Source of the DNA: a virus
Lineage: Duplodnaviria; Caudoviricetes
Direction: 5' to 3' (one strand)
DNA: 64,000 bases
Virus record (IMG/VR): IMGVR_UViG_3300020419_001132
A program made the position numbers and the translations under genes. The notes under the pieces are model-generated. The model saw only the letters and a program-made list of their open reading frames with translations. It made no database searches and was not told where the DNA came from. Shown piece after piece: positions 33,012-64,000 of this stretch. Numbering within the stretch: the first letter of the stretch is position 1; every line of letters starts with the position of its first letter.

Positions 33012-33347
33012 ATGGATACAAAGTTAAGCAAAGCATTGGATTTTTCCCAATATATGACTACACTAAACAATCAAAAAAGGTTGTTGTGGGAAAAATACCA
33101 AGAAAGTTTGTTATATTATTGTAATGGAGGAAAGTTTACTATAACTCCTGAACTAATAGCATATTGTAATGCCGCAGGTTATGATAATGTTGTGCTAATA
33201 GATGATAATCAATTACCCATAAAAGTTACACTGAAAGAATTTTTGTATGATATACGTGTACAATATGGAAAAGCATCTACAGAATATTATGAGCAGTACT
33301 CCAAGTTAAAAGTAAAAAGAAAAATAGAGGATTTAATTGAAGTATGA
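33012..33347 (+). CDS. Hypothetical protein (111 aa; possibly fibre-assembly/chaperone-like)
   Basis: Good SD, ATGA coupling to the next gene; no catalytic motif recognised. Confidence 0.5.
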   Translation: MDTKLSKALDFSQYMTTLNNQKRLLWEKYQESLLYYCNGGKFTITPELIAYCNAAGYDNVVLIDDNQLPIKVTLKEFLYDIRVQYGKASTEYYEQYSKLKVKRKIEDLIEV

Positions 33348-34159
33348 GTCAAGGAGTACTGTTATTTGCACACAACAGCCCTCAAATTGATTATGTAAAA
33401 CAGGCAGTATATTGTGCTAAGAAAATAAAAAAACATTTAAGTTTACAGGTAGCACTAGTAACCGATTCTAAAGCATATTTAGAACGAGCATTTCCTTATT
33501 ATTCTAATTATATTGACATTGTTGTAAGCAAACATCATAAAACAGAACAACATAGAAAGTTCTGGAATGGCACTATGTACAAAACATTGCCTTGGAATAA
33601 CTTTACAAGATGTCATAGTTACGATCTGTCGCCATTTGATAGAACACTAGTATTAGATACAGATTTTTTAGTAGGAAATAACTTGTTGCTAAAATGTTTC
33701 AGCAACAATAACTTTAAAATTAGTAGCAGTTTTATAGATTTAAATCCAAGTAGAAATGACATTACACTAAGCAGGGTAAGTGATACATCAATTAATATGT
33801 ATTGGGCAACTGTATTTTATTTTTGTAAAAATAAATTTAGCAAAACTTTTTTTAATTTAGTACAACACATACAAGATAATTGGAACTATTATAGGCTTTG
33901 TTATCAAATACAAGAAAATAACTTTAGGAATGATTTTGCATTTTCTATTGCATTGCACTTAATGGGTAATCCTCAAAAAGAATTACCTTGTAGTATATAC
34001 CTAACAACTGATAAAGACTTGCTTCTTAAAATACAAGATGATAGATATAAGATATTATTAGAGAATGAAACTTTATGTTCTGTAAACGAAACAAATATAC
34101 ATCTTATGAATAAGTTTACATTGAACGACAACATACATAAGGAGTTACAAAATGAGTAA
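33344..34159 (+). CDS. GT-A-fold glycosyltransferase-like protein
   Basis: 271 aa; YDLSPFDRTLVLDTDFLV (DxD), MYWATVFYF, FRNDFAFSIALHLM. Confidence 0.65.
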   Translation: MSQGVLLFAHNSPQIDYVKQAVYCAKKIKKHLSLQVALVTDSKAYLERAFPYYSNYIDIVVSKHHKTEQHRKFWNGTMYKTLPWNNFTRCHSYDLSPFDRTLVLDTDFLVGNNLLLKCFSNNNFKISSSFIDLNPSRNDITLSRVSDTSINMYWATVFYFCKNKFSKTFFNLVQHIQDNWNYYRLCYQIQENNFRNDFAFSIALHLMGNPQKELPCSIYLTTDKDLLLKIQDDRYKILLENETLCSVNETNIHLMNKFTLNDNIHKELQNE

Positions 34160-34973
34160 AGGATTTTGTTTTGTAGCCCAAAATAACGATACTACAGACT
34201 ACGTAAGGCAAGCATGTCTACTTGCAGTTAGTATACACAAGTTTAACAATAGTCAAAATATTTCCTTAATTACTAATGACCAAGTTCCAAAGAAGTATAG
34301 GGTATTATTTGATAAAATTATACCAATACAAAAAGATGATGCAGAAACTGCAACAAAAAAAATGCATAATCGTTGTAAGATGTATGAGCTATCACCTTAT
34401 ACACAAACTATTGGTATGGATGTAGACATGTTAGTTATGCGTGATATAACTAATTGGTGGTCATATTTAAAAAATTATGATTTATTTTTTGTAAGCAATG
34501 TGAAAACTTATAGAAACGAAACTGTTACGTCTACCTGGCATCGAAAAGTTTTTATTAATAATAATTTACCTAACTTATACAATGGAATATTTTATTTTAA
34601 AAAGTCAAAAACAGCAAAAAAATATTTTGATTTACTAAAAATTATTACACAGAATTGGGAAACATTTTATAAAGTTTACTCTCCTATCAAAATGCAAAAG
34701 TTTTATAGTGTAGATGTTAGTACAGCTATTGCCTGTAAAATTTTAGGAATAGACAAGCAAGTATGCGATCCTAATAGTTTTATTAGTTTTGTTCATATGA
34801 AACCAGCTTTACAAAACTGGAGAGAATCCTGTCTAAATTGGACAGATAAAGTGGATTGGTCTGTAAATAATAGCAAAGAACTTATGGTAGATAACTTTAT
34901 ACAAAACAATGTATTTCATTATGTAGAAGATAAGTTTTTAACAGACGAACTTATAAAGGAACTTGAAACATGA
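34152..34973 (+). CDS. GT-A-fold (GT8-like) glycosyltransferase
   Basis: 273 aa; YELSPYTQTIGMDVDMLV (DxD), LPNLYNGIFYFKKS, FVHMKP; paralogous to the upstream gene. Confidence 0.7.
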   Translation: MSKGFCFVAQNNDTTDYVRQACLLAVSIHKFNNSQNISLITNDQVPKKYRVLFDKIIPIQKDDAETATKKMHNRCKMYELSPYTQTIGMDVDMLVMRDITNWWSYLKNYDLFFVSNVKTYRNETVTSTWHRKVFINNNLPNLYNGIFYFKKSKTAKKYFDLLKIITQNWETFYKVYSPIKMQKFYSVDVSTAIACKILGIDKQVCDPNSFISFVHMKPALQNWRESCLNWTDKVDWSVNNSKELMVDNFIQNNVFHYVEDKFLTDELIKELET

Positions 34974-35542
34974 GTTGTTTTGCATATTTTAATGAAGACA
35001 CGGGCGAAGTTACAGAAATAACTAGCGAAAAAGATAGCACACGTCTTTATATAGAAATAGATGATGCTCTTGCAACAAGTTTTTTAAATGCAACAGAAAG
35101 TATGTTGGATTGGATTGTAACAACTGACAGTGATAACAAGTATGTAATATCAAAAAAACAAAAAAATAAAAAAGAAGTAATAACAAACAATAGTATTTTT
35201 CCATTAAAAAGATTTAACAAAATACAAGAAACACAAGATGTATTTCAAGTTATACAAATAGGAACAAAATGGTTAGGTTATGCAAGTTTAACAAACGAGT
35301 GTAGAGATTTTTATAAACGTAGTAAAGATTATTTTGGACAATATAAGGTTTTGTATGTTACAGAAAAAGGCGATAAAAGAAAACTATTAGAAACTATTTC
35401 TGTTGACTTTGAAAATTTTTTTACTGATACTAAGTTTGAAATACAAGCAGAGACATTAAAAGATTGTGACCTGTATATTGCTTCAGGAAATGATAATTTT
35501 ATACATGTAAGGTGTGATAATGAGCATGAAATACTTTACTAG
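34970..35542 (+). CDS. Hypothetical protein (190 aa)
   Basis: ATGA-coupled ORF inside the GT operon; no motif recognised. Confidence 0.5.
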   Translation: MSCFAYFNEDTGEVTEITSEKDSTRLYIEIDDALATSFLNATESMLDWIVTTDSDNKYVISKKQKNKKEVITNNSIFPLKRFNKIQETQDVFQVIQIGTKWLGYASLTNECRDFYKRSKDYFGQYKVLYVTEKGDKRKLLETISVDFENFFTDTKFEIQAETLKDCDLYIASGNDNFIHVRCDNEHEILY

Positions 35543-35891
35543 AAAGATGATAGCCCACAAAGACTTAAACAGTAATGGGACTCTTTTTGGCGGTCGTGTA
35601 CTTGACTGGATTGATGAGGAAGCATATATTTACTGTAGCTGTCAATTAGATAATGACAGAGTAGTAACAAGAAGTATGAGTAATATTGATTTTCTGCATA
35701 GTGCAGTAAGAGGAGATATTATTGAAATAGGCATGGAAACAGTGAAGCTAGGAATTACAAGTATTACAATTAAATGTAACGTAAGAAATAAACGTACAGA
35801 AAAAACAATTACCAGTGTTGATAAAATTGTATTTGTAAACTTAGGACCTGATGGTAAGCCTGCACCACACGGAGTAACAAATGAAAGTTAA
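35526..35891 (+). CDS. Hotdog-fold acyl-CoA thioesterase (YciA-like)
   Basis: MKYFTRKMIAHKDLNSNGTLFGGRVLDWIDEEA...VVTRSMSNIDF...GDIIEIG...GITSITI; likely start at ATG 35526 rather than GTG 35514. Confidence 0.8.
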   Translation: MKYFTRKMIAHKDLNSNGTLFGGRVLDWIDEEAYIYCSCQLDNDRVVTRSMSNIDFLHSAVRGDIIEIGMETVKLGITSITIKCNVRNKRTEKTITSVDKIVFVNLGPDGKPAPHGVTNES

Positions 35892-37470
35892 CGTTCCAGA
35901 CTGTGATGTAGTTTATTTGTCATATGACGAACCTAATGCAGAAAAAAATTATGCAGATCTTCTAACAAAAGTTCCTTGGGCAAAACGTATACACGGAGTT
36001 GAAGGATCAGATGCGGCACACAAGGCATGTGCAGAAATATCAGAAACACAGCGTTTTATAACTATAGACGGTGATAATATGGTTAAGCCAGAATTTATAA
36101 ATCAAAGTGTAGAGTTTGTAGCAGGTTCAGATATTTCTAAAAATGTAATAAGTTGGACAGGATATAACAAGATTAACGGATTGATGTATGGCAACGGCGG
36201 AATAAAATGTTGGGATAGAGATACTGTGTTAAACATGAAAACACACGAAAATGCAGATCCTGATAACATACAAGCACAAGTTGATTTCTGTTGGGATTTA
36301 GAATACATTCAAATGGATGATTGTATGAGTATTGTTGAAAATAACTATAATTCCAAACAAGCATGGAGAGCTGGTTTTAGAGAAGGTGTAAAAATGTGTT
36401 TAATTGAAGGAGAAAAACCTTCCTTAGATGACCTTATAAATGTTCATTGGAAAAATATGCACAGACTATTTGTTTGGACAATGGTAGGGGCAGATGTTAA
36501 AAACGGGCAGTGGGCAATATACGGTGCTCGTGAAGGATTTTACAAAACGATGCTAACAGATTGGGATTATATAAATGTAAGAGATTTTGAATACCTTAAT
36601 GAATATTGGAAAAACAAAATAACTACTGAAGATACTGTATATGACAAGATAGAAGAATACGGAGAAGAACTTATTAACCAGATACAGGTACCTATAAGTC
36701 AATTACCACTGGACGAAGGTGGTAGCAAATTCTTCAAAACATTATATCAAAATCCTCCACGTATAACACATCATACTGTATTACCTAAAGATAGTGGACA
36801 GTATGATATTATAATGTTATCGTATGGAGAACAAAATTCTAATGAAAATTTTGCAAAACTTAAACAGCGTTTCCCTCAAGCAAAACGTATACATGGAGTA
36901 AAAGGTATTGCAAATGGACACATTGCTTGTGCAGAAATAGCAGATACAGATATGATGTGGATTGTAGACGGAGATGCAGAAGTTTTAGATAATTTTAATT
37001 TTAATTATGTAGTACCAGAGCATGAAAAAGATGCTGTCCATGTATGGAGAAGTGTAAATCCTGTCAACGACTTAGAATACGGATACGGTGGAGTAAAACT
37101 TTTACCGGTAGAGCTAACAAAAGAAGTGGACACAAGTAGTGTAGATGTAAACACCAGCATTAGTACAAAATTTAAAGTCATGAAAGAGGTAAGTTGTGTT
37201 ACTAAGTTTAATACAGGCCCGTACGAGGCCTGGAAAAGTGCATTTAGAGAATGTTCAAAATTAGCAAGTAAGGTAATAGATCGACAGAAAGAGGATGAAA
37301 CAAATGCCAGACTTAAAACTTGGACGACCGTGGGACACGATAGATTATATGGTGAATATGCTCTGGCAGGCGCTACCGCTGGTATGGAGTTTGGCCTTTC
37401 TGGGGGGTCTGATCTTCAGTTGATAAACGATTTTGATTGGTTAAAGGAAAGATTTGATGAACAATTCTGA
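35881..37470 (+). CDS. Tandem-duplicated GT-A-like glycosyltransferase
   Basis: 529 aa with two homologous halves (LSYDEPNA..KRIHGVEG..AHKACAE..IDGDN and LSYGEQNS..KRIHGVKG..GHIACAE..VDGDA), each with a DGD motif and AWxxxFRExxK. Confidence 0.6.
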   Translation: MKVNVPDCDVVYLSYDEPNAEKNYADLLTKVPWAKRIHGVEGSDAAHKACAEISETQRFITIDGDNMVKPEFINQSVEFVAGSDISKNVISWTGYNKINGLMYGNGGIKCWDRDTVLNMKTHENADPDNIQAQVDFCWDLEYIQMDDCMSIVENNYNSKQAWRAGFREGVKMCLIEGEKPSLDDLINVHWKNMHRLFVWTMVGADVKNGQWAIYGAREGFYKTMLTDWDYINVRDFEYLNEYWKNKITTEDTVYDKIEEYGEELINQIQVPISQLPLDEGGSKFFKTLYQNPPRITHHTVLPKDSGQYDIIMLSYGEQNSNENFAKLKQRFPQAKRIHGVKGIANGHIACAEIADTDMMWIVDGDAEVLDNFNFNYVVPEHEKDAVHVWRSVNPVNDLEYGYGGVKLLPVELTKEVDTSSVDVNTSISTKFKVMKEVSCVTKFNTGPYEAWKSAFRECSKLASKVIDRQKEDETNARLKTWTTVGHDRLYGEYALAGATAGMEFGLSGGSDLQLINDFDWLKERFDEQF

Positions 37471-38293
37471 ATCGACATTACAATGGGTTAGAGGTTTGTC
37501 AGAATATCTTGACTTTGTAAAAGACGATAAATCTAAAATGTTTATTGATTTTTTAGAACAAAGTATGTATGCAGATAATCCAGTTATTGATAATACTAAT
37601 CAAAAAGGAATGATAGAATTTATAAGTATCCTTAGAAAATTTGCTCCTAATGAGATTTTTGATATATTCCATAAGTATTATAGATTAGGTTTTGATCCAA
37701 AAGCACTTCAAGATGCATTTAGTAGAGGACAAGTATTAAGTAAAATCTGGTTAGTAAATGAGCTTGTAAAAATACAAAAAAACTTTGATATGATTCATGT
37801 ACATGCAGGTTGGTTTGGGCAAATAAGATTGTACTTAGATCAGATGCAGATAAAGTATAATAAAATGCGTGTGTTTGATATAGATAAAACAGCAAATGAA
37901 GTAAGTGACAAAGTGTTTAATAATTTGTTGTTAGAAAATTATTATGTTAAAGCTTCTATTGCAGACGTAGATAATCTTGCAACACTTTATAGAACAGGAT
38001 TTGAATATCCAATTACTGAGGACAAAAATGAAAAAACAGAAGCAGACTTGATTATAAACACAAGTGCAGAACATTTTCAAGAAAATTGGTTTTTAAAATA
38101 TAGAAATAAACCACAGTCTACAGATCCTTTGTTTATTATTCAGACAAATAATTTGCATAGTCTACCCGAGCATGTAAATACTATACACAACGTAGAAGAA
38201 ATGATAAAAAAATATCCTATGTCTCGGGTAGAGTATAGTGGACAATTAGAATTACAAGGATATACTAGATATATGTTGATAGGAAGAATATAA
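37457..38293 (+). CDS. Class I SAM-dependent methyltransferase-like protein
   Basis: HVHAGWFG (motif I variant), RVFDID, ADLIINTSAEH; ATG at 37457. Confidence 0.6.
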   Translation: MNNSESTLQWVRGLSEYLDFVKDDKSKMFIDFLEQSMYADNPVIDNTNQKGMIEFISILRKFAPNEIFDIFHKYYRLGFDPKALQDAFSRGQVLSKIWLVNELVKIQKNFDMIHVHAGWFGQIRLYLDQMQIKYNKMRVFDIDKTANEVSDKVFNNLLLENYYVKASIADVDNLATLYRTGFEYPITEDKNEKTEADLIINTSAEHFQENWFLKYRNKPQSTDPLFIIQTNNLHSLPEHVNTIHNVEEMIKKYPMSRVEYSGQLELQGYTRYMLIGRI

Positions 38294-38964
38294 TGTCAGT
38301 AAGAAAAATTGAAGCTGGTGAAGATTGGGCTCTATGGAGGTCAGACGTAGTAGAAAATAATATTGAACAAATGTCTGCAGAACTAGGCAGAGCATATAGG
38401 CTTTTTACAGAAACATTTACAGGTATGAATTCTTCGCTTACAAGTTTAGATCCTTTTAATAATACTTCGTTAAAAGATTTACCAAATATATTCCAAAATG
38501 TAAAACGAGAAGAACAGGAAGATAGAAATTTTTTAAACACTAATCAAGATGTATCAGGTTACAGATTTTACAATGTGTTTGCCTTAACTACACCGAGTCC
38601 TCTTTTTTGGGAACTATTTCAAGAAATAAAATATATTGTTGAACAACAGTTTGATTATCACGGACCAAAATGGATTCAGTGCTGGTTAAATTATCACAAG
38701 CAAGATGAAGTTTTAGATTGGCATAACCATGCTTTCCCTATGCACGGGTATGTGTCTATTCGCCCTCATTATACTACAACTACTTTTGGTGATTATGAAG
38801 TTAAAAATGAAATTGGAAATATATACATTGGTCCTGGCCATAGAGATCATAAAGTAATTGTAAACAAGGAATGGAAAGATGATATGCCTAGGTTAACACT
38901 AGGATATGATATAATTACAGATGTAAATATCCCAGACAATCAATTTTCCGCTATACCGTTATGA
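38293..38964 (+). CDS. Putative Fe(II)/2OG oxygenase (HxH type)
   Basis: WLNYHKQDEVLDWHNHAFPMHGYVSI...GHRDHKV...RLTLGYD jelly-roll pattern. Confidence 0.6.
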   Translation: MSVRKIEAGEDWALWRSDVVENNIEQMSAELGRAYRLFTETFTGMNSSLTSLDPFNNTSLKDLPNIFQNVKREEQEDRNFLNTNQDVSGYRFYNVFALTTPSPLFWELFQEIKYIVEQQFDYHGPKWIQCWLNYHKQDEVLDWHNHAFPMHGYVSIRPHYTTTTFGDYEVKNEIGNIYIGPGHRDHKVIVNKEWKDDMPRLTLGYDIITDVNIPDNQFSAIPL

Positions 38965-39188
38965 TTGAAAATTTAACTTTACGCAAATTACAGTTAGAAT
39001 GTGCTAGAGCTTTACAGACTATGCAAGCCACTAATAATAACATACATCAATTTAATAAAAAGGCCCACCATAATAGCCAAGACTGGTATAAGGCAGTAGT
39101 AGAATGGTATATTAATTCATATGGTGGATTACCGAGCAAGGTAGGTCCTGGCACAAAAGTAAAATTAATTATGGATAGTGAAGAATGA
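38961..39188 (+). CDS. Small hypothetical protein (75 aa)
   Basis: ATGA-coupled on both sides, consistent with a real gene. Confidence 0.5.
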   Translation: MIENLTLRKLQLECARALQTMQATNNNIHQFNKKAHHNSQDWYKAVVEWYINSYGGLPSKVGPGTKVKLIMDSEE

Positions 39189-40790: not shown

Positions 40791-40791
40791 G

Positions 40792-40808
40792 ATAAGTACG
40801 TATATAAA
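40792..40808 (+). promoter_or_regulatory. 17-bp intergenic motif ATAAGTACGTATATAAA (late-promoter-like)
   Basis: Fills almost the whole intergenic spacer and is identical to 31960-31976. Confidence 0.5.
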
Positions 40809-44608: not shown

Positions 44609-44653
44609 GTGAAACCCTGTTTTTCAGCTTAAATAAATCCATACTAAGTTTAA

Positions 44654-44668
44654 TATAAATATATTTAT
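44654..44668. promoter_or_regulatory. Back-to-back late-promoter motifs in the 14-bp palindrome ATAAATATATTTAT
   Basis: Plus strand TATAAATA at 44654-44661 (exact T4 late consensus); minus strand ATAAATA at 44668-44662; lies between divergent genes. Confidence 0.6.
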
Positions 44669-44691
44669 GTTCATTAAAGTAGTAGTTAACT

Positions 44692-52087: not shown

Positions 52088-52090
52088 GTA
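52083..52090 (+). promoter_or_regulatory. Late-promoter-like TATAAGTA abutting a start codon
   Basis: One mismatch from TATAAATA; overlaps the stop at 52087 and the ATG at 52090. Confidence 0.3.
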
Positions 52091-53213: not shown

Positions 53214-53218
53214 TTAAT

Positions 53219-57416: not shown

Positions 57417-57999
57417 TTGTGCATATAATTTAAATATTGATGTTACTGATCTTAGAAAAGAATTATTAGAGTATCAAAAGACACTTTCTTATACTAAAGA
57501 AGATTGGGGTAGCTTATTTGTAGAAAGAGAAAAATTAGGAAAACATACAGAAAATTTTTATAAAATACTTCCTAATTGTTTTTTAAGTAAAATAAGATTT
57601 ATAGATTATACACAATTTGACGAAGAAAATCCCCATTTATATCATATAGATGTTGATGTAGCTAATCAAGGTTATTATGATGGTGAGATACATCACATGC
57701 AGATTAGACAAGCATCAATTAACATTTTACTTTCAGGCAATGAGAATATAGAAACATTATTTGCTGTAGATCTTGAAAGTGAATATAGTGACAAGCTACA
57801 TTATTTCAAAGAAAGAAATATGAAAGTTGTCGATAGAAAAAAAGCTACTAAGTTTCCAATGCTTATTAATACAGGAATGTGGCATAAGTCAGATCCAATT
57901 GATAACACAAGAAAGCTAGCCAGTTTTATATTTCATCCTTTTGTATCATTTATTGAAGCAAGAGAAAGGTGCAAACATAAAGGAGTATTAATAGAATGA
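57409..57999 (+). CDS. Fe(II)/2OG-oxygenase/cupin-like protein
   Basis: IRFID..LYHID (HxD)...PMLINTGMWHKSD..RKLASF; paralog of the upstream gene. Confidence 0.55.
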   Translation: MTNCAYNLNIDVTDLRKELLEYQKTLSYTKEDWGSLFVEREKLGKHTENFYKILPNCFLSKIRFIDYTQFDEENPHLYHIDVDVANQGYYDGEIHHMQIRQASINILLSGNENIETLFAVDLESEYSDKLHYFKERNMKVVDRKKATKFPMLINTGMWHKSDPIDNTRKLASFIFHPFVSFIEARERCKHKGVLIE

Positions 58000-58607
58000 A
58001 AAAGAATCAATTACCTAGTATACATAATTTAAATTTAGATATAGATCTAAAAACATTGCAAAATGAATGTGATAAACTTGCAGAAAAATTTGTTGATGTA
58101 AAAACTGCAAATCCAATGTTGTGTGATAATCATATGGAATTGGTTGCAGATGTATATGATAATTTTGAACAAATAAATCTAACAACTCCGAGCGAAATAC
58201 TGCCTTATACTGCTAGTATAAAAGAAAGACTAAAACGTAAGGAAGAACACTTATACAATATTCCTACAGAAGATTACACAGGAAGTTATTTTGAAAAAAT
58301 TGTTACACAACTTAAAGCACCTGCAAGTAGAATACGTATAACAAAATTAGCACCAGGAAAAAATATTCCGTTTCATGTTGATTATGATGTCAGTTATGCT
58401 GTAAGATGTATAGTTCCAATTTACGGAGATAAGCAAGTAATTAATTTATTCAAGCGTGACGGAAAGTTAGAAGCCTATAATCTAGATAGTGGAAATGCAT
58501 ATTTTTTAAATATCGGATATCCACATGCTGTTATTAACATGAGTACAAAACCAAGAATTGCACTTATGTTTAGTTTAAATGGTACTGAAGATCTAGAATC
58601 AATATGA
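57996..58607 (+). CDS. Aspartyl/asparaginyl beta-hydroxylase-like Fe(II)/2OG oxygenase
   Basis: RIRITKLAPGKNIPFHVD...YFLNIGYPHAVIN..PRIALMF. Confidence 0.75.
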   Translation: MKKNQLPSIHNLNLDIDLKTLQNECDKLAEKFVDVKTANPMLCDNHMELVADVYDNFEQINLTTPSEILPYTASIKERLKRKEEHLYNIPTEDYTGSYFEKIVTQLKAPASRIRITKLAPGKNIPFHVDYDVSYAVRCIVPIYGDKQVINLFKRDGKLEAYNLDSGNAYFLNIGYPHAVINMSTKPRIALMFSLNGTEDLESI

Positions 58608-59149
58608 TTATATTTCCAGATAGGATTTTTATTCTTATTCCTAAGTGTGGCTGTAACAGTATTATGAGTATGTATGGTGTAAATCCTTGGGCAAAACATA
58701 GACAACATATTGAAAATAAAGAGGAAGCAGTTTTATATTTAAAAGGAGATTATCCCCATATGCCTGTTAGTCAGATTCCAGAAAGATTTTCTTATCTGCC
58801 TACAGAAGCGATAGTCAGAAACCCTTGGCATAGAACTGTAAGTAGATATTTTTATCTACAAAAAATGAACGACTTCGAAATGAGTTTTGAAGAATTTGTA
58901 AAAAGTAAGTATATACATCCTATGTACAAACAAGATCCTGATTATGCCAAATGGGGTAGTGTAAGTTGGACACAACAGATTGAATGGATTGACGATAATA
59001 CAAAGGTACATAAATTTGAAGAGTATGATTTTACGTTACATGAAAATAAATCACATAGTCGAGATTTTGAAAGTATGTATAATAACGAGTTATATAAAAT
59101 AGTAGGAGATTATTACATAAAAGATGTAGAAAGGTTTAATTATGTATAA
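58604..59149 (+). CDS. Sulfotransferase (Sulfotransfer_2-like)
   Basis: FILIPKCGCNSI (5'-PSB) and VRNPWHRTVSRY (3'-PB). Confidence 0.75.
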   Translation: MIIFPDRIFILIPKCGCNSIMSMYGVNPWAKHRQHIENKEEAVLYLKGDYPHMPVSQIPERFSYLPTEAIVRNPWHRTVSRYFYLQKMNDFEMSFEEFVKSKYIHPMYKQDPDYAKWGSVSWTQQIEWIDDNTKVHKFEEYDFTLHENKSHSRDFESMYNNELYKIVGDYYIKDVERFNYV

Positions 59150-59729
59150 AAGTTGTTATGAAGTAGATGTTAAATTGCCAGATGATTATGTAGATAAGGC
59201 ATTAAAAGCATTTCACGAAAGATTGCCGGAGGCTTATACAGATAGAGCACCTGATGCCCATATAGATGAGTATCCCGAATTGTTTGAAATATTTGGAGAT
59301 ATGAAAGGTTGGTTTGCACCAAAGGTTAGATTGCTTAACCACACTCCTAACGAACTAGGGACAACGGCACCACACTTTGATGTCAATGAGCATTGGCAAT
59401 ATGAAGATATGGATAGATTTATTAAAATTGAAGCAAGTTTGAATGTTCCATTATTTGCCCCAGAAGGCGTTGTTACACGTTGGTATCAACAAAAGAATCC
59501 AGATGTTATACACCCATATGACTTTTGGGAAGGTAAAAAATATGAAATGCGAACAGTAGATGAATTTGAAATTACAAATAAGCCTGTATTGTTTAGAACA
59601 GGTATTTGGCATGCTGTAGAAAAATCAGACAGCAAACGCACTATGCTAAGTTTCAGTGCAAGATATGGTATCGATTGGGATACTTTTGTAAATTGTTGGA
59701 GAGACAGCGGATTACTTATTGAGCGTTAG
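59142..59729 (+). CDS. Fe(II)/2OG-oxygenase/cupin-like protein
   Basis: APHFD (HxD)...SLNVPL...PVLFRTGIWHAVE..RTMLSF. Confidence 0.6.
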   Translation: MYKSCYEVDVKLPDDYVDKALKAFHERLPEAYTDRAPDAHIDEYPELFEIFGDMKGWFAPKVRLLNHTPNELGTTAPHFDVNEHWQYEDMDRFIKIEASLNVPLFAPEGVVTRWYQQKNPDVIHPYDFWEGKKYEMRTVDEFEITNKPVLFRTGIWHAVEKSDSKRTMLSFSARYGIDWDTFVNCWRDSGLLIER

Positions 59730-60276
59730 ACTCGCCCTTCCAGCGTAAAAATGGTTCTTCACTTGCAAAAGGCCAACCACTAATATTTAATCTATCACCA
59801 GTACAGTTATCTACTTCATGTAGTATGTCTACATGCATACATACAAGCCTATTTCGTTTAGGTAATATGCTTATACCATCGACACGTAAAGCACCATCAG
59901 TTTCGTCTGTCAGGTATAACATGTATGTCCAATCACCGTATATTTTATGATCCTCTATATGTGGAGCACAGAAACTTCTTTCTGGTTCAAACTTTTTTGC
60001 AAACAGTTGCAGGGGATTAAGTTTTTCTGTTGGAAGATCTAAACCTATTACATTGCCTATTTTTTTCAACAAAGGATAACGCAAGTCACTTCGCCTAAGT
60101 TCTGTGCGTAGCATATACCAATCATAGTCTGTTTTTTCTTCCATTACATGATTACAGTCTTCATTGTTTAATGAAATAGTTTCAGCTCCGGTAACTAACT
60201 TTGTAAGATCTGTAATTAATTCTTCTTCTAAAAAATTATCACAAATTATTAATGTATCAAACTCAGTTCTTAGCAT
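59716..60276 (-). CDS. Prolyl-4-hydroxylase-like Fe(II)/2OG oxygenase
   Basis: FCAPHIED...MLYLTDETDGAL...PKRNRLV...LHEVD...RLNISGW. Confidence 0.7.
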   Translation of the reverse strand: MLRTEFDTLIICDNFLEEELITDLTKLVTGAETISLNNEDCNHVMEEKTDYDWYMLRTELRRSDLRYPLLKKIGNVIGLDLPTEKLNPLQLFAKKFEPERSFCAPHIEDHKIYGDWTYMLYLTDETDGALRVDGISILPKRNRLVCMHVDILHEVDNCTGDRLNISGWPFASEEPFLRWKGESNAQ

Positions 60277-61336
60277 AATTTAATTCCTTTGTATTCCAAT
60301 TTTTTCCATATCCACTACTGTATTCAAATTTTTGCCCACATGTCCTTCCACATGTATATATTCTTTTATATTTGTCATCAGGATTATTCCAGGATCTTTC
60401 TAAATAAGTTTGGAAAAATTCGTTTTGTAAAACATTCCAACCATATTTTCTCATATCATTAAAATCTTCGCCATACAAGTCTAAAAAATATTTAAAACTT
60501 TCCCATTGTTTAGTATGCCTTTTGTCGGCAAAATATTTAGGACCACCAAACCAACAGCATGGCCATAGGCGCATATCCATATCAATAAATAATCTAAAAT
60601 CTTTTTTAAACTTACAAGTGATATCTGTATTTGCAACATAATCATCAAAGTTTTTGTATTGAGAAAGTACAGAAGAAAAGTCTTGTGTTACGTGACTGTC
60701 TTTATTTTTTACCGTATTGCCTTTTCTAGTTTTAACTTGCGTTTTTGTATCTTGAAATCTAGCAGTATATTTTACAGTAAAATTGGTAAATCCTAATTTA
60801 CTTGCTAATTTTTCTGCATCATCTATTTGATGATAATTATGTGCAAACTCTATAAATTGCCATTCTGCTTTCCCACCAGCTTTTATATAAGCAGTTGCAT
60901 TTTCAATAATTTTTTCGAAATTACTTCCTATTCTATACAAATGATTAGTATCTTTTAATCCGTCTATTGAAAATACTACAGATAGTTTTTCTTTGCCGTT
61001 ATTAGCTAAGTCAGTCCACCACTTAGGTTTCCTAGCACTACCATTTGTTTCTATTCTCATTGTTCTTGTAAAATCTAAACTGTATAAAAAAGTTTCTTCA
61101 AAGGTCGGACTTGCTATTATATCTCCAAAGTTTCCACAATGAATAATTTGGTCTAATTTATTATTTGTAAAAGGTTCTAATATAATTTTATAATCTTGTA
61201 AAGTTAAATCAGTGATTGGCATACCTGGATTTACTTTTTGATCTTTACTTACCCTGCCACATTGTGGACACATTAAATTACATCTGCTTGTATGATCAAG
61301 CATTAATTTTTTAATGTATGAAGTATTAGTAAACAT
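60263..61336 (-). CDS. Radical SAM protein with C-terminal twitch domain (type A)
   Basis: CNLMCPQC; CGNFGD; FIDMDMRLWPCC...CGRTC; likely start at 61336 (TAATG overlap). Confidence 0.9.
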   Translation of the reverse strand: MFTNTSYIKKLMLDHTSRCNLMCPQCGRVSKDQKVNPGMPITDLTLQDYKIILEPFTNNKLDQIIHCGNFGDIIASPTFEETFLYSLDFTRTMRIETNGSARKPKWWTDLANNGKEKLSVVFSIDGLKDTNHLYRIGSNFEKIIENATAYIKAGGKAEWQFIEFAHNYHQIDDAEKLASKLGFTNFTVKYTARFQDTKTQVKTRKGNTVKNKDSHVTQDFSSVLSQYKNFDDYVANTDITCKFKKDFRLFIDMDMRLWPCCWFGGPKYFADKRHTKQWESFKYFLDLYGEDFNDMRKYGWNVLQNEFFQTYLERSWNNPDDKYKRIYTCGRTCGQKFEYSSGYGKNWNTKELNYAKN

Positions 61337-61983
61337 TATTTTATAAGTGCAAATTTCTTGCAGTCGTCCCAACTTTCAGTATCGTAAGGTATATGGGCAA
61401 CTACTCGCCAATGATCAGTAGGATTCACAACCTGATGAAACTGATGTCTATTAAAGATAGCAGGCTTTTCGTGTAAACAATATTCTACAGCAACTTCTTC
61501 GTCTGGTATTTCTGATAATTCTGGCCTGCCTTTAATATAATTATAGCTGTCTATATATCTATTATCTTCTGGATCGTGCCAATGTGCATACTTTGTTATG
61601 CTTTGTTCATCAGTGCCTATTAATGGTAACATTAAGGCACCTGCATGCCAATCAGGTGAAGGAGCAGGATGTCTGTGCGGGACAAATATAGGAGTTATTT
61701 CTGGACATGTAACAAAAAACATAACATCAGATACAAGATGAAACTTAGGTATTAATCTTTGCCATTCGTTGTATTCAGGTAAATGCATAATTTGTCCAAT
61801 ACGAACTTTTGTCCACATTCTGGCTCTATAAAATGCATCATTGCGTTCAAAATGTTTTTTAAAGTAATCGGTTCTTGGTTGGTTAGTGACTAAGCTAGGA
61901 CATATATTAAATATATCTCTACACATCCTTTGCATTAACGTATAATCTTCACTCCATTCAAGTTCTATTATAAAATCATCCAT
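61336..61983 (-). CDS. Fe(II)/2OG-oxygenase/cupin-like protein
   Basis: FVPHRH...ALMLPL...PAIFNRHQFHQVVN..WRVV. Confidence 0.5.
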   Translation of the reverse strand: MDDFIIELEWSEDYTLMQRMCRDIFNICPSLVTNQPRTDYFKKHFERNDAFYRARMWTKVRIGQIMHLPEYNEWQRLIPKFHLVSDVMFFVTCPEITPIFVPHRHPAPSPDWHAGALMLPLIGTDEQSITKYAHWHDPEDNRYIDSYNYIKGRPELSEIPDEEVAVEYCLHEKPAIFNRHQFHQVVNPTDHWRVVAHIPYDTESWDDCKKFALIK

Positions 61984-62609
61984 TTATATTCCCTTGCATT
62001 TTCTATTACTGACTCGTAATCTATGTAATCTCTCATTTTAGCATATTCAGTAGATAAATTCATTTCCTCATAGTTAAATGTTTTAAGTTTATTAAATTTT
62101 CTCAAATCTAAACTGTTATCACGGTTATTAATATCTAACCATAATTCTACGTCAGATTTATCAATTTGTATTTTTTGTTTTTTAATTTTGTTCATTTCAC
62201 TTACTTTAGGATTAGGATGCTCCCAACCTGTTTTTTGTTGATATGTATGACTTAAAAACTGCTCCCATTTGTTTTGTCTTTGTAAATAGTATACATTTTT
62301 ATCTTCGTAAAAACTATATAACCATTCTCTATGATCTTCCCAGTTATATATCTGACTTGGAAATAGTTTTATACAATAGTGCCTGTCTTTTTTTATTTCT
62401 GATTCAATAAACTTGGTTTTTGAAGCAAGATTGTCTTTATCTAACTGGTCAAACATTTCTAATAGATGTTTATGGTTTCTTCTTTTAATCCAATATAACC
62501 AATCTTTGTTAAAGTATTCTCCAATGTAATTACTAGGTTTATCCAAGTAGCTATCTATAAACCAAGTGCTTCCACTTCTTGGACTAGCTATTAGTAGTTT
62601 AGTATCCAT
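61968..62609 (-). CDS. Sulfotransferase (P-loop, Stf0-like)
   Basis: LLIASPRSGSTW (5'-PSB), GEYF, YLQRQNKWEQFLS; likely start at 62609. Confidence 0.7.
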   Translation of the reverse strand: MDTKLLIASPRSGSTWFIDSYLDKPSNYIGEYFNKDWLYWIKRRNHKHLLEMFDQLDKDNLASKTKFIESEIKKDRHYCIKLFPSQIYNWEDHREWLYSFYEDKNVYYLQRQNKWEQFLSHTYQQKTGWEHPNPKVSEMNKIKKQKIQIDKSDVELWLDINNRDNSLDLRKFNKLKTFNYEEMNLSTEYAKMRDYIDYESVIENAREYKWMIL

Positions 62610-63327
62610 TTTGTTTCTGCCAGTCACTCCAATCAAAACTTCCATCTTCTAGCCACTGATTATTATGAGTATCACCCTTGCTTTGCAGACCGTGAATACT
62701 ACCTACTAAGTGTAATCTTTTATAATCTGTATATGGAACTTGATGAGGGCGAACAGTATTAAGTAGGAATGCTTCTCCTGGATCACACATAATAGGCCCA
62801 GCATCAGTATCTATTGCACTTACTTTAGGATCATTTTCTAATACATGATGATATCTAAATCCAGTATCTCCATCTGTATGCCATTCAAAGATACATTCAT
62901 TTTCCATATAGCTATACCAATAATTACTTCGACCCATATTATTACAATATTCATTTAATGCCTGATAATGATGTTCGCCTAGTTTTTTCATATCATTATG
63001 TAAAAAACACCAAATATCTTTTTGTGTATAGTTTCCTAGTCTTGCATTTTCTTGGCGCATCATTATCTTATATAGTGTTCCTGTTTCAAGATGATGTTCT
63101 TCAGTGTAATCTTCCCAGTCTGGTTCATCTTCTATTACAAACCCACGTAAGCTATCAACAAAATCTTTTTTATGCATAAGTTTGTCACTACGTTTTAGAT
63201 ATACATTCATGTATGTTTGGTTGCCAAACTTAATATCATCAAAAAATTCTTCAGTCATCTCATAGAATAGATCTGTCATTTCTTTTGTATTACTGATAGG
63301 CGGAATCTTTTTCCAAGCGTCTGTCAT
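62599..63327 (-). CDS. Fe(II)/2OG-oxygenase (AspH-like) protein
   Basis: FEWHTD (HxD)..FRYHHVL...FLLNTVRPHQV..RLHLVG; start at 63327 by ATGA overlap. Confidence 0.6.
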   Translation of the reverse strand: MTDAWKKIPPISNTKEMTDLFYEMTEEFFDDIKFGNQTYMNVYLKRSDKLMHKKDFVDSLRGFVIEDEPDWEDYTEEHHLETGTLYKIMMRQENARLGNYTQKDIWCFLHNDMKKLGEHHYQALNEYCNNMGRSNYWYSYMENECIFEWHTDGDTGFRYHHVLENDPKVSAIDTDAGPIMCDPGEAFLLNTVRPHQVPYTDYKRLHLVGSIHGLQSKGDTHNNQWLEDGSFDWSDWQKQNGY

Positions 63328-63782
63328 ATGTGGGTCAAACATTCGTATACTTCCTCTATTGGTTCTGCAAAACAAATTTGAAAATTTGTCCGCACATGGT
63401 TATTATTATTTACAAAATGTTCCTTTTGTGTATTCATTAGCACAGGAGTTTCATGTGTAACAATAGGACCATCTACAAATTCACAGTTAGCGTAATCTTT
63501 GTGCCAATAAAGTGGAACAATCAATACTGTGTTTCTATCCCATTTGTCGTTGTCTATATGGGGAATAACTTTTGATCCAGGCGGCTGTTGAACAAACATA
63601 GTATAACTTTTTAACGGAAACCTATTATACTTTTCAATGTTGTTATCCCAACATAGGTTGCCGTCATATGCTCCACCTTTTGTTGGATATGATATAAAAT
63701 TACTCCAGTCTAGACTTAGTTCTAATTCTTTAACTTCGCCATCAGAGATAACATTAGGTATCGCTATCCAATAAGGTAGCAT
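63324..63782 (-). CDS. Fe(II)/2OG-oxygenase/cupin-like protein
   Basis: QQPPGSKVIPHID (HxD)..LIVPL...PVLMNTQKEHFVNN..RTNFQI. Confidence 0.65.
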   Translation of the reverse strand: MLPYWIAIPNVISDGEVKELELSLDWSNFISYPTKGGAYDGNLCWDNNIEKYNRFPLKSYTMFVQQPPGSKVIPHIDNDKWDRNTVLIVPLYWHKDYANCEFVDGPIVTHETPVLMNTQKEHFVNNNNHVRTNFQICFAEPIEEVYECLTHI

Positions 63783-64000
63783 TATGTATATACCGCAAAT
63801 TTTTGTGCTTGTACAGCTTCTTCACAAACTTTAACATTAAGTATTAGCCATAAGCTATCACTGTTTACACTATTATTAAATAGGCAATGCGGTTTATGTG
63901 TGTTCATAAAGTATGATGTACCTTGTTGCCAATAGATAGGTTGCATGGTTGCTCCACCACCAAACATAAAATGAAATGTTGGAGGGTTTACATTTTTAAT
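63782..64000 (-). CDS. C-terminal part of a cupin/2OG-oxygenase-like protein (5'-truncated by window edge)
   Basis: Frame open to base 64000 (IKNVNPPTFHFMFGG...YFMNTHKPHCLFN..WLILNV); shares the family signature. Confidence 0.5.
   Translation of the reverse strand: MKNVNPPTFHFMFGGGATMQPIYWQQGTSYFMNTHKPHCLFNNSVNSDSLWLILNVKVCEEAVQAQKFAVYT

What the first reader, a model, noticed from the sequence alone, without database searches (positions are those of the whole stretch)
33012..64000. Phage-encoded ~31-kb BGC-like tailoring island (12 radical SAM, ~11 Fe/2OG enzymes, GTs, sulfo-/methyl-/phospho-transferases) abutting the tail fibres
Seen: from the end of the fibre block to beyond the window edge, nearly every recognisable gene encodes a modifying enzyme. 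These are 12 CxxxCxxC radical SAM proteins, about 11 His-ligand jelly-roll proteins, 3 DxD GT-A-like proteins, 2 sulfotransferases, 2 MTases, a kinase-like protein, a PLP enzyme, a nitroreductase, a thioesterase and a QueC-like domain. Most are translationally coupled, and I recognised no replication, scaffold-synthase (NRPS/PKS/YcaO/LanC) or transporter gene. Established: twitch radical SAM enzymes such as BtrN, NeoN and AprD4 oxidise, epimerise or dehydrate sugars; sulfo-, methyl- and phosphotransferases and 2OG hydroxylases are classic glycan/protein tailoring enzymes; phage thymidine hypermodification also uses PLP, rSAM, flavin and 2OG enzymes. Inference: the island is a combinatorial decoration pathway. 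The best fit is building and diversifying a glycan or other modification on virion proteins (fibre adjacency, late motifs, Ser/Thr-rich structural proteins), with host-surface remodelling or DNA hypermodification as alternatives.
Basis: partly seen in the sequence, partly recalled or inferred. Interest (0 to 1): 0.92.

Follow-up and report, generated by a model that had tools for sequence, protein, structure and literature searches.

The report
Phage fibre-linked radical-SAM tailoring island
An abundant uncultured marine jumbo phage devotes about 33 kb behind its tail-fibre genes to sugar-transferring enzymes and a fast-changing array of 12 radical-SAM and about 10 iron-oxygenase genes; the island is real and common to the whole lineage, it most likely builds and edits a glycan-type decoration, and nobody has tested its chemistry.

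Summary
The window carries 12 intact radical SAM (rSAM) genes in four paralogue groups, 10-11 cupin/2OG-type proteins, two GT8-like glycosyltransferases and a weaker tandem GT-A-like protein. It also carries a 4HBT thioesterase, a compact PLP enzyme, a nitroreductase-like protein, a sulfotransferase and a QueC/Cap9-like PP-loop domain fused to an rSAM. The methyltransferases, the second sulfotransferase and the kinase rest on motifs or sub-threshold hits only.

New here:
- The phage is a marine jumbo myovirus, and its relatives carry 8-19 rSAM genes per record.
- The order fibre genes, small gene, GT8, GT8, GT-A-like, rSAM array is conserved down to about 30-50% protein identity, behind a conserved sigma-70-type promoter.
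- Two rSAMs (44692, 52090) are 80-89% conserved anchors. The rest of the array is reshuffled even between strains.
- QueC-like, nitroreductase-like and PLP genes recur as array components.
- The N-terminal-twitch rSAM family (NF033640) has more than 8,600 clusters at 50% identity and no studied member that I could find.
- The island ends about 2 kb beyond the window, at another fibre-like gene.

The substrate is not shown. Glycan tailoring on virion proteins is the best fit (about 0.4). The host envelope, a deazapurine or DNA modification, and direct protein modification remain open.

Multi-rSAM phages are known (CP220, a Tara genome). This scan has already reported look-alike islands in many other genomes.

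The parts
32963..32991 (+). sigma-70-type promoter (TTGACA, 17 nt spacer, TATACT) in the gap ahead of the island's first gene
   Evidence: It is the best-scoring site in 32-52 kb. Both hexamers are conserved in 7 relatives (-35 TTGAC invariant; -10 TATA(A/C)T), while the spacer varies.
33012..33347 (+). 111-aa protein of unknown function, always between the last fibre gene and the GT8 pair
   Evidence: Its position is conserved at 45-50% identity in L104-L112. It has no family hit.
33344..34159 (+). GT8-like glycosyltransferase 1
   Evidence: PDB hits of profile A4 are 19 of 20 glycogenin-1/2, best E 0.004, and cover the DxD motif. D105 and D107 are invariant.
34152..34973 (+). GT8-like glycosyltransferase 2, a paralogue of 33344
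   Evidence: BLAST E 2e-11 to 33344. It belongs to the same profile.
34970..35542 (+). 190-aa unknown protein, syntenic in relatives
   Evidence: No family hit.
35514..35891 (+). 4HBT-fold thioesterase (gene callers start it at 35520)
   Evidence: PF03061, 54 bits.
35881..37470 (+). tandem two-domain GT-A-like protein (weak support)
   Evidence: It shows an internal repeat with two DGD motifs. GT2 scores 18.9 bits against a cut-off of 23.3. Relatives carry a single-domain version in the same position.
37454..38293 (+). 279-aa protein, possibly a methyltransferase (motif only)
   Evidence: It has a glycine-rich motif. No Pfam, PHROG or PDB hit.
38293..38964 (+). 2OG-oxygenase-like protein
   Evidence: phrog_2696, 148 bits. 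phrog_81 (2OG-Fe(II) oxygenase), E 6e-4.
38961..39188 (+). 75-aa unknown protein
   Evidence: 73% identical in 7 loci.
39185..39733 (+). small kinase-like protein
   Evidence: Pkinase scores 18.3 bits, below the cut-off. An HNDLKLSN catalytic-loop-like motif is present.
39726..40790 (+). radical SAM, group A (CxxxCxxC at the N-terminus, Cys-rich C-terminal half)
40809..41864 (+). radical SAM, group A
41845..43041 (+). radical SAM, group B (N-terminal twitch, NF033640)
   Evidence: NF033640 scores 203 bits against a cut-off of 170.
43022..43969 (+). radical SAM, group A with a SPASM-like C-terminus
43964..44608 (-). nitroreductase-like flavoprotein, a recurrent array component
   Evidence: The nearest Atlas clusters carry PF00881 in 95-96% of members, score 0.93. 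The family has 60 members in 45 of 80 loci.
44654..44668 (.). palindrome carrying the late-type motif ATAAATA on both strands
   Evidence: The motif is 11-fold enriched upstream of ORF starts in 80 loci.
44692..46098 (+). conserved N-twitch radical SAM (lineage anchor)
   Evidence: NF033640, 423 bits. It is 80% identical in 75 of 80 loci. More than 4,000 metagenomic homologues were found.
46088..47326 (+). radical SAM, group B
   Evidence: NF033640, 220 bits.
47316..49838 (+). fusion of an N-twitch radical SAM, a charged linker and a QueC/Cap9-like PP-loop domain
   Evidence: The model has pLDDT 84.5. The top Foldseek hits are QueC 3bl5 and Cap9 9nto_B. 10 of the top 20 AFDB clusters are named QueC.
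49828..51003 (+). radical SAM, group C (a paralogue of 52090)
50996..52087 (+). radical SAM, group B
   Evidence: NF033640, 229 bits.
52090..53202 (+). conserved group C radical SAM, the 3' anchor of the array
   Evidence: It is 78-99% identical in the 80 loci kept (145 related stretches found in IMG/VR). Its fold is a generic SPASM/twitch type; the top hit is BlsE with TM about 0.5.
53219..53977 (+). compact PLP fold-type I enzyme
   Evidence: Profile A3 hits class I/II aminotransferases at E 3e-6. D124 and K151 (in an SxSK motif) are invariant.
53956..55476 (+). class B-like (cobalamin-type) radical SAM, probably a methyltransferase
   Evidence: PF04055, 42 bits. The B12-binding domain scores 19 bits, below its cut-off. 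The KedN5 family scores 155 bits, below its cut-off of 700.
55473..56138 (+). possible cupin (HVD...H), motif only
   Evidence: No family hit.
56122..56706 (+). possible class I methyltransferase (motif only)
   Evidence: Methyltransf_4 at E 0.18. A VEVGTYYGG motif is present.
56703..57416 (+). cupin paralogue with HxG in place of HxD
   Evidence: It is replaced in some strains.
57409..57999 (+). cupin paralogue (HxD...H)
57996..58607 (+). Asp/Asn-hydroxylase-like cupin, conserved
   Evidence: PF05118, 25.9 bits. The family has 82 members in 61 of 80 loci.
58604..59149 (+). sulfotransferase (Sulfotransfer_2)
   Evidence: 22.7 bits against a cut-off of 22. It is replaced by other DNA in some strains.
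59142..59729 (+). cupin paralogue
59716..60276 (-). 2OG-Fe(II) oxygenase
   Evidence: PF13640, 31.6 bits.
60263..61372 (-). radical SAM, group A (gene callers give 357 aa)
61336..61983 (-). cupin paralogue with an HxH...H triad
61968..62645 (-). possible sulfotransferase (SPRSGSTW motif only)
   Evidence: No Pfam or PDB hit.
62599..63375 (-). cupin paralogue
63324..63782 (-). cupin paralogue
63782..64000 (-). cupin paralogue cut by the window edge (216 aa in full). The island continues to a fatty-acid-desaturase gene and an Mtd_N fibre-like gene.

Best explanation
This is a lineage-wide enzyme island inside the tail-fibre module of an abundant marine jumbo myovirus. It runs from about 33.0 to about 65.9 kb in window coordinates.

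It has a stable core:
- a small protein, two GT8-like glycosyltransferases and a GT-A-like protein directly behind the fibre genes, under a conserved sigma-70-type promoter;
- two highly conserved radical SAM (rSAM) enzymes, 44692 and 52090.

Around the core lies a rapidly reshuffled set of tailoring enzymes:
- N-terminal-twitch and SPASM-type radical SAMs;
- QueC/Cap9-like PP-loop ATPases;
- nitroreductase-like flavoproteins and small PLP enzymes;
- cobalamin-type rSAM methylases;
- Asp/Asn-hydroxylase-like cupins and sulfotransferases.

The most likely working is inferred, not shown. The GT core builds a glycan, probably on a virion protein such as the fibres or the Ser/Thr-tailed baseplate protein. 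The variable enzymes then edit it by radical oxidation, epimerisation or methylation, carboxylate activation or amidation, hydroxylation and sulfation. Different strains would thus display different chemistry.
For: Shown.
- Enzyme families and intact catalytic motifs are present in the window. Across 80 relatives, CxxxCxxC is found in 361 of 368, 134 of 135 and 58 of 58 full-length rSAMs of the three families, and SGGxDS in 65 of 66 QueC-like proteins.
- Relatives hold 8-19 rSAM genes per record. The three records checked for NF033640 hold 8-12 members above the cut-off.
- The same families recur as mosaics in the 80 loci.
- The order fibre, 33012, GT8, GT8, 34970, GT-A-like, N-twitch rSAM is conserved at 30-55% identity.
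- The promoter hexamers are conserved while the spacer varies.
- The island is bracketed by fibre genes on both sides.
- Late-type ATAAATA motifs precede the structural genes and 44692.

Carbohydrate leaning.
- GT8 (glycogenin-like) proteins are present.
- A Sulfotransfer_2 protein is present.
- N-twitch rSAMs elsewhere are fused to an FkbM methyltransferase and, weakly, to a Stf0-like sulfotransferase.
- PMM, cytidylyltransferase and UDP-sugar dehydrogenase genes lie in the same genome.
- The best PDB match of 52090 is the sugar-acid decarboxylase BlsE, although this match is weak.

Candidate acceptors. The gp6-like baseplate protein carries a poly-Ser/Thr tail in the window and in four relatives.
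Against: - No substrate, acceptor or product is shown.
- The GT core has a host-type, probably early, promoter rather than a late one. That suits enzymes directed at DNA or the host at least as well.
- Fold matches of the rSAMs are generic: BlsE, CteB, MoaA, viperin and anSME all give TM about 0.5.
- Nitroreductase-like and QueC-like enzymes are not typical glycan enzymes.
- Fibre regions of T4-like phages are recombination hot spots, so adjacency alone is weak evidence.
- Strain-level gain and loss argues against one fixed pathway.
- GT-A, methyltransferase, second sulfotransferase and kinase assignments are weak.
Confidence: 0.4

Rival explanations
1. Host-envelope remodelling. The island modifies lipopolysaccharide, capsule or lipid of the infected cell, for example to block superinfection or to stop progeny from re-adsorbing.
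For: - The GT operon has a conserved sigma-70-type promoter.
- By established knowledge, GT8 is also the LPS-core transferase family, PF05118 includes the lipid A hydroxylase LpxO, and the LPS kinases WaaP and KdkA are kinase-like.
- A thioesterase is present, and a fatty-acid desaturase lies at the island's end.
Against: - No membrane-anchored enzyme, flippase, polymerase or lipid-carrier gene was recognised.
- The position inside the fibre module is conserved.
- A late-type promoter sits inside the array.
- rSAM arrays are not known in LPS pathways.
Confidence: 0.17
2. Nucleobase, nucleoside or DNA hypermodification. The QueC-like and rSAM enzymes derivatise a 7-deazapurine or another nucleotide that ends up in phage DNA or in a small molecule.
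For: - The QueC/Cap9-like fold is fused to an N-twitch rSAM. An rSAM lies directly upstream of 34 of 66 stand-alone copies.
- FolE lies about 14 kb past the window end and is present in the three most complete relatives.
- The GT operon has an early-type promoter.
- PLP, rSAM and flavin enzymes serve thymidine hypermodification (PMC8989533).
- Campylobacter phage CP220, with 11 rSAMs, has fully dADG-modified DNA (PMC2853527; 10.1101/2023.04.13.536721).
Against: - No TGT/DpdA match was found in five relatives.
- No QueE, QueD or TGT domain was recognised next to FolE.
- A thymidylate-synthase-family gene, needed for hmU or hmC routes, was found in only one of five relatives.
- There are several QueC-like paralogues per genome and all fall below the QueC threshold.
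- One DNA base does not need 12-19 rSAMs.
Confidence: 0.15
3. Direct protein or peptide modification without a glycan. The SPASM/twitch rSAMs and the Asp/Asn-hydroxylase-like cupins cross-link, epimerise or hydroxylate virion proteins, for instance the poly-Ser tail, or a peptide.
For: - Most characterised SPASM enzymes act on peptides or proteins, and the weak NCBIfam hits are to such maturases.
- PF05118 members hydroxylate protein Asp/Asn.
- Ser/Thr-rich tails occur on the gp6-like protein.
- The Cap9 precedent shows QueC-like protein conjugation (PDB 9nto).
Against: - There is no PqqD/RRE domain, no precursor-like small Cys- or Gly-rich ORF, and no protease or exporter.
- Group A proteins begin directly with the cluster motif.
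- The structural proteins are Cys-poor.
Confidence: 0.12
4. No common pathway. A hyperplastic region next to the fibre genes has accumulated independently acting accessory enzymes.
For: - Gene content differs between near-identical strains and between relatives.
- There are at least three transcription units with different promoter types.
- Only two rSAMs are strongly conserved.
Against: - The family content is non-random and recurs in 80 loci.
- Genes overlap tightly.
- A domain fusion and conserved adjacency link rSAM and QueC-like genes.
- The GT-core synteny is conserved.
- Catalytic motifs are almost universally intact.
Confidence: 0.14

Closest known systems
NCBIfam NF033640, N_Twi_rSAM (twitch domain-containing radical SAM protein)
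   Same: Four window proteins pass the curated cut-off with full-length matches. All have four N-terminal Cys ahead of CxxxCxxC.
   Different: The family is only catalogued. I found no paper on a member. Here it forms arrays of 5 per window and 8-12 per genome, and is fused once to a QueC-like domain.
Campylobacter phages CP220 and CPt10, with 11-12 radical SAM genes in interchangeable modules (Timms 2010, PMC2853527)
   Same: These are T4-related phages with many diverged rSAM genes in exchangeable blocks and no known function. Group A has a 23% identical relative in CP220.
   Different: The phage lineage and host differ. No N-twitch or group C homologue was detected there. Their modules carry amidinotransferases, not GT, cupin or sulfotransferase genes.
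T4-like Tara Oceans genome TARA_ERS488813_N000010 with 12 rSAM genes (Nishimura 2017, PMC5332604)
   Same: It is a marine uncultured T4-like phage with the same count, noted in passing in an Fe-S context.
   Different: Its G+C content is 54.4% against about 33% here, so it is another lineage. No analysis of arrangement or function was given.
Virus-encoded virion glycosylation: mycobacteriophage capsid and tail glycosylation (Freeman 2023, cited in PMC12619734) and the chlorovirus PBCV-1 capsid glycan machinery (own knowledge)
   Same: Soluble viral glycosyltransferases are encoded beside structural genes, and Ser/Thr-rich acceptor tails occur.
   Different: Those systems have no rSAM, QueC-like, nitroreductase or cupin arrays. 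Glycosylation is not shown here.
QueC (PDB 3bl5, 2pg3) and Cap9 (PDB 9nto)
   Same: The PP-loop SGGxDS motif, the C-terminal Cys cluster and the overall fold are shared (TM by target 0.6-0.7).
   Different: Pfam QueC scores 13-17 bits against a cut-off of 22. The first-to-second Cys spacing is longer. There are several paralogues per genome, embedded in rSAM arrays. The substrate is unknown.
Sugar-acting twitch or SPASM-type rSAMs: BtrN (own knowledge) and BlsE (PDB 7vob)
   Same: They have a small auxiliary-cluster domain and no peptide-recognition domain. BlsE is the best PDB match of 52090.
   Different: TM is only about 0.5, and peptide- and nucleotide-acting rSAMs score almost as well. 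In group B the auxiliary domain sits at the other end of the protein.
Phage thymidine hypermodification pathways (Lee 2021, PMC8989533)
   Same: They use the same toolkit of PLP, rSAM, flavin and kinase enzymes in a phage.
   Different: No hydroxymethylase or aGPT-Pplase-type genes were seen. ThyA-family genes are absent from most relatives.

Membership tests
Radical SAM superfamily (PF04055) | CxxxCxxC cluster motif | tested here: met
   There is exactly one motif in each of the 12 proteins.
Radical SAM superfamily (PF04055) | Pfam gathering score of 29.5 bits | tested here: met
   Ten of 12 pass. 39726 (24.0) and 60263 (26.3) fall just below, but are paralogues of members at E 1e-36 to 1e-51.
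NF033640 N_Twi_rSAM | curated cut-off of 170 bits with a full-length match | tested here: met
   41845 scores 203, 44692 scores 423, 46088 scores 220 and 50996 scores 229 bits. The N-terminal half of 47316 was not scanned against the model, but it aligns with the conserved Cys.
NF033640 N_Twi_rSAM | Cys-rich auxiliary domain N-terminal to the rSAM barrel | tested here: met
   C11 and C29 are nearly invariant and C92 and C95 are invariant, all ahead of C148/C152/C155. A Pfam SPASM hit lies at residues 6-96.
Class B (cobalamin-dependent) radical SAM methylases | N-terminal B12-binding domain | tested here: inconclusive
   PF02310 scores 19.1 bits against a cut-off of 32.1. The KedN5 family scores 155 against 700.
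QueC (PF06508) | Pfam gathering score of 22 bits | tested here: not met
   The window domain scores 13.5 bits and a stand-alone relative 17.4. One relative reaches 22.9.
QueC (PF06508) | PP-loop SGGxDS and a C-terminal Cys site | tested here: met
   S29, G30, G31, D33, S34 and C203, C231, C234, C237 are invariant in 37 sequences.
QueC (PF06508) | QueC fold | tested here: met
   The top PDB hits are QueC 3bl5 and Cap9, and QueC 2pg3 also matches full-length. 10 of the top 20 AFDB clusters are named QueC.
QueC (PF06508) | conversion of CDG to preQ0 | not testable with these tools
   This needs an enzyme assay.
GT8 glycosyltransferases | GT-A N-terminal domain with a DxD motif | tested here: met
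   The profile hits glycogenins only, aligned through the DxD motif. D105 and D107 are invariant.
GT8 glycosyltransferases | significant family-model score | tested here: inconclusive
   No Pfam hit. The PDB profile E-value is 0.004.
2OG/Fe(II) or cupin oxygenases | HxD/E...H facial triad in a jelly-roll fold | tested here: met
   The triad aligns in 8 proteins, with variants HxG in 56703 and HxH in 61336. No fold model was made.
Sulfotransferases | family-model score | tested here: inconclusive
   58604 scores 22.7 against a cut-off of 22. 61968 has a motif only.
RiPP biosynthetic clusters | precursor peptide plus an RRE/PqqD-like recognition domain | tested here: not met
   There is no such domain and no candidate ORF.
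7-deazaguanine DNA modification system | DpdA/TGT transglycosylase | tested here: not met
   There is no PF01702 match in five relatives, and none is on record for the genes next to FolE. Divergent DpdA3/4 could be missed.

The most novel reading that the evidence does not exclude
The reshuffled arrays of N-twitch radical SAMs, QueC-like ligases, flavoproteins and cupins act as a combinatorial chemistry generator. They diversify a modification on baseplate or fibre proteins, for example on the variable poly-Ser/Thr tail of the gp6-like protein. This would be a chemical counterpart to tail-fibre mosaicism that tunes host range or evasion. It would also give a first function to an enzyme family of more than 8,600 clusters, found here only in phage-like contigs, that has no studied member.
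Probability: 0.15. Interest if true: 0.9.

Novelty: new variant of a known kind. Interest (0 to 1): 0.72.

Why it matters
Radical SAM enzymes are costly and oxygen-sensitive. Even so, a phage lineage common in surface-ocean metagenomes keeps 12-19 of them intact, in a region that changes between strains. That points to a strongly selected and still unknown chemistry at the phage-host interface.

The N-terminal-twitch family is very large and has no characterised member, so one solved reaction would annotate thousands of genes. If the product sits on the virion, it would extend phage glycobiology well beyond the few known cases. If it is a nucleobase derivative, it would extend the known range of DNA modification.

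Tried and rejected
- Megablast of 48 kb of the window against GenBank phages found nothing.
- tblastn of 52090 found no isolate phage. 44692 found only three jumbo phages at about 20% identity, in uninformative surroundings.
- The window's own assembly is not held. The nearest record, G001, is a 49-kb fragment without rSAM genes.
- The diverse N-twitch alignment could not seed a scan of bacterial genomes.
- The single-protein scan found only MAG contigs labelled Crocinitomicaceae or Bdellovibrionales. At 10-256 kb they are probably binned phage DNA, so they give neither a bacterial context nor a host.
- Single-sequence PDB searches for 61968, 37454 and 35881 gave nothing. Pfam at E up to 10 gave nothing useful for 55473, 56122, 56703 and 57409.
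- The contexts of two fusion proteins lay on 5-kb contigs and were uninformative.
- RNA evidence is weak. Three oligo-dT marine RNA libraries from one study hold short, near-identical contig pieces scattered over 40-59 kb. DNA carry-over is not excluded and contigs cannot give expression levels. Stretches without cover mean nothing.
- The ORF at 44598-44912(-) looks conserved only because it overlaps the conserved start of 44692. Gene callers do not call it.
- The exact T4 late motif TATAAATA occurs only twice. The shorter ATAAATA is the informative form.
- The 2025 'moraphage' paper does not mention radical SAM.
- I did not use complex prediction, because an enzyme-substrate pair chosen on adjacency alone is a poor case for it.

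Full report
**What the window is.** The left half encodes a T4-type late sigma factor, a baseplate hub, wedge proteins, a 5,260-aa giant protein and several fibre or collar proteins. The gp6-like wedge protein is 33-37% identical to those of jumbo myoviruses such as Atu_ph07, Phosso, SCTP-2 and PBCV-unrelated PBECO4. No GenBank phage matches at the DNA level. Identical proteins occur in dozens of marine metagenome assemblies, on contigs up to 232 kb. Relatives in IMG/VR reach 330 kb at 93% estimated completeness. The phage is therefore an abundant, uncultured marine jumbo myovirus with about 33% G+C.

**Checking the observation.**
- Radical SAM (rSAM). Twelve ORFs each carry one CxxxCxxC motif. 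Ten pass Pfam Radical_SAM, and the other two are clear paralogues.
- Paralogue groups.
  - Group A is 39726, 40809, 43022 and 60263(-), with the cluster motif at the N-terminus and a Cys-rich C-terminal half.
  - Group B is 41845, 44692, 46088, 50996 and the N-terminal half of 47316-49838, with a Cys-rich twitch-like domain before the barrel. Four of these pass NCBIfam NF033640.
  - Group C is 49828 and 52090.
  - The last is one cobalamin-type enzyme, 53956.
- Cupins. An iterative profile seeded from the Asp_Arg_Hydrox-like family recruits 57996, 63782(-), 63324(-), 62599(-), 59142, 61336(-) and 57409. 56703 is their paralogue. 59716(-) is a Pfam 2OG oxygenase and 38293 matches a PHROG 2OG family. 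Aligned to the profile, they show HxD/E...H, with HxG in 56703 and HxH in 61336.
- Glycosyltransferases. The profile of 33344, 34152 and relatives finds only glycogenins in the PDB, aligned through the DxD motif. 35881 is an internal duplication with two DGD motifs but only a sub-threshold GT2 hit.
- Other supported families:
  - the 4HBT thioesterase;
  - the PLP enzyme 53219, whose profile hits class I/II aminotransferases at E 3e-6 with an invariant Lys and Asp;
  - the nitroreductase-like 43964(-);
  - sulfotransferase 58604, at the Pfam threshold.
- QueC-like domain. The C-terminal domain of 47316-49838 folds with pLDDT 84.5. Its best matches are QueC and Cap9 in the PDB, and 10 of the top 20 AlphaFold clusters are named QueC. 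It nevertheless fails the Pfam QueC threshold.
- Weakly supported. The second sulfotransferase, both methyltransferases and the kinase rest on motifs or weak hits.
- Packing. Genes overlap by 1-23 nt almost throughout.

**Extent and transcription units.** The island does not stop at the window edge. In a near-identical contig the minus-strand run continues through three more small genes and a fatty-acid desaturase to an Mtd_N fibre-like gene. The island therefore spans about 33.0-65.9 kb and has fibre genes on both sides.

The motif ATAAATA is five-fold depleted in the window (12 matches against 49 expected). Seven of the 12 copies lie 18-54 nt upstream of start codons. Five of the genes concerned are structural genes; the other two are 44692 and, on the other strand, 43964. 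In 80 related loci, 32% of copies lie in the 2.9% of positions just upstream of ORFs. I read this as the lineage's late promoter.

The gap before 33012 is different. It holds the best sigma-70-type site of the region, and its two hexamers are conserved in seven relatives (-35 TTGAC invariant; -10 TATA(A/C)T) while the spacer varies. The GT core is thus probably transcribed by unmodified host polymerase. Read-through from the late fibre genes is also possible.

**Comparative anatomy.**
- 52090 is 78-99% identical in the 80 loci kept (145 related stretches were found in IMG/VR), and 44692 is about 80% identical in 75 of the 80. The other rSAMs find only 25-30% identical paralogues.
- Within 10 kb of the 52090 homologue, loci carry 1-11 rSAM ORFs, and most carry 5-10. 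Five larger records carry 8-19 each. The three of them checked for NF033640 carry 8-12 members above the cut-off.
- Clustering all ORFs shows the recurring components:
  - group A and B rSAMs (399 in 78 loci);
  - group C (139 in 80 loci);
  - AspH-like cupins (82 in 61 loci);
  - stand-alone QueC-like proteins (66 in 45 loci);
  - cobalamin-type rSAMs (60 in 41 loci);
  - nitroreductase-like proteins (60 in 45 loci);
  - PLP-like proteins (42 in 36 loci);
  - two unassigned families.
- Catalytic motifs are intact in essentially every copy.
- An rSAM lies directly upstream of 34 of the 66 QueC-like genes. This matches the fusion in the window.
- Near-identical strains differ by replacement of 56703-57409 and of 58604.
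- The left part is stable. The order fibre genes, 33012, GT8, GT8, 34970, GT-A-like, N-twitch rSAMs is kept in relatives whose proteins are only 30-55% identical.

**Size of the family.** A profile of group B finds 8,655 clusters at 50% identity with E up to 1e-30, and 23,406 with E up to 1e-10. Many are tandem double enzymes. There are also fusions to an FkbM-type methyltransferase, to TPR repeats and, below the Pfam cut-off, to an Stf0-like sulfotransferase. None of 14 model prokaryotes has a member above the cut-off. I found no paper on any member.

**What it most likely does.** The enzymes are real, selected and linked. The substrate is inferred.

Evidence leaning towards carbohydrate:
- the conserved GT core;
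- GT8 and Sulfotransfer_2 proteins;
- the FkbM fusion;
- nucleotide-sugar genes in the same genome, namely PMM, a cytidylyltransferase and a UDP-sugar dehydrogenase that would supply a carboxylate for a QueC-like ligase;
- BlsE as the best, though weak, structural match of 52090.

Evidence for a virion acceptor:
- the position inside the fibre module;
- the late promoter at 44655;
- a Ser/Thr/Gly-rich tail on the gp6-like protein, about 45 residues long in the window and variable in length in four relatives.

Against this, the conserved host-type promoter would suit host-envelope or DNA-directed enzymes.

FolE lies nearby and is present in the three most complete relatives checked. The QueC-like fold keeps a deazapurine reading alive. 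However, no TGT/DpdA was found, and a thymidylate-synthase-family gene was found in only one of five relatives. The genes next to FolE show no QueE or QueD domain at usable thresholds.

A RiPP-type reading lacks a precursor, a recognition domain and an exporter.

My odds are:

| Reading | Probability |
|---|---|
| Glycan-type decoration, probably on virion proteins | about 0.40 |
| Host envelope | 0.17 |
| Nucleobase or DNA | 0.15 |
| No common pathway | 0.14 |
| Direct protein modification | 0.12 |

**Prior knowledge.**
- Campylobacter phages CP220 and CPt10 were reported in 2010 to carry 11-12 rSAM genes in exchangeable modules, with no function assigned (PMC2853527).
- A 183-kb Tara genome with 12 rSAM genes was noted in 2017 (PMC5332604). 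Its 54.4% G+C shows it is another lineage.
- Within this scan, look-alike islands have already been noted in about 28 other genomes. Several follow-ups reached the same glycan-tailoring reading. I treat those notes as leads, not as independent support.

**Verdict.** This is an undescribed variant of the known but unexplained phenomenon of multi-rSAM phages. It has a clearer anatomy than before, and its product is unknown.

Noticed in passing
window 10046-25828 (+): A single 5,260-aa ORF lies between the baseplate wedge gene and the fibre genes. Its only Pfam hits are FG-GAP repeats. It is probably a giant baseplate- or fibre-associated protein.
   Followed up: partly
window about 9870-10043; L117-L120: The gp6-like wedge protein ends in a Ser/Thr/Gly-rich tail, with a run of 10 Ser in the window and 19 Ser in L117. 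The tail is absent from the aligned part of isolate-phage homologues and varies in length among relatives.
   Followed up: partly
window 732, 6452, 25825, 30413, 31956, 44655/44662: ATAAATA is five-fold depleted overall but sits 18-54 nt upstream of structural genes. It is likely the late promoter element of this lineage.
   Followed up: yes
window 56703-59149: Near-identical strains replace or delete 56703-57409. They also swap the sulfotransferase gene for about 630 nt of unrelated sequence.
   Followed up: partly
L097 1291-3874 (about 6-9 kb past the window end): An AAA_5 (MoxR-like) ATPase gene lies next to a DUF2201 metallopeptidase/VWA gene, just beyond the Mtd_N fibre-like gene.
   Followed up: no
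L099/L100 (about 14-28 kb past the window end): This stretch holds FolE, HIT, DUF6552, a PRTase, a 2OG oxygenase and an HhH-GPD glycosylase-like protein. It then holds UDP-sugar dehydrogenase, cytidylyltransferase and PMM genes beside DNA polymerase B. The QueE, QueD and DpdA genes claimed in earlier notes were not recognised by Pfam.
   Followed up: partly
L087-L092: Contigs of 10-256 kb in MAGs labelled Bdellovibrionales carry 53-60% identical homologues of 44692. They are probably freshwater relatives of this phage binned into bacterial genomes.
   Followed up: no
P0122-P0150: Many metagenomic proteins of about 800 aa are tandem fusions of two N-twitch rSAM enzymes.
   Followed up: no
window 56703-57416 and 61336-61983(-): Two cupin paralogues have altered metal triads. 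HxG is the pattern of Fe/2OG halogenases, and HxH gives a three-His site.
   Followed up: partly
L010:17783-19138, L097:5434-6717: The fibre-like gene on the far side of the island carries an Mtd_N domain, the N-terminal domain of the Bordetella phage tropism determinant. I did not look for a diversity-generating retroelement.
   Followed up: no
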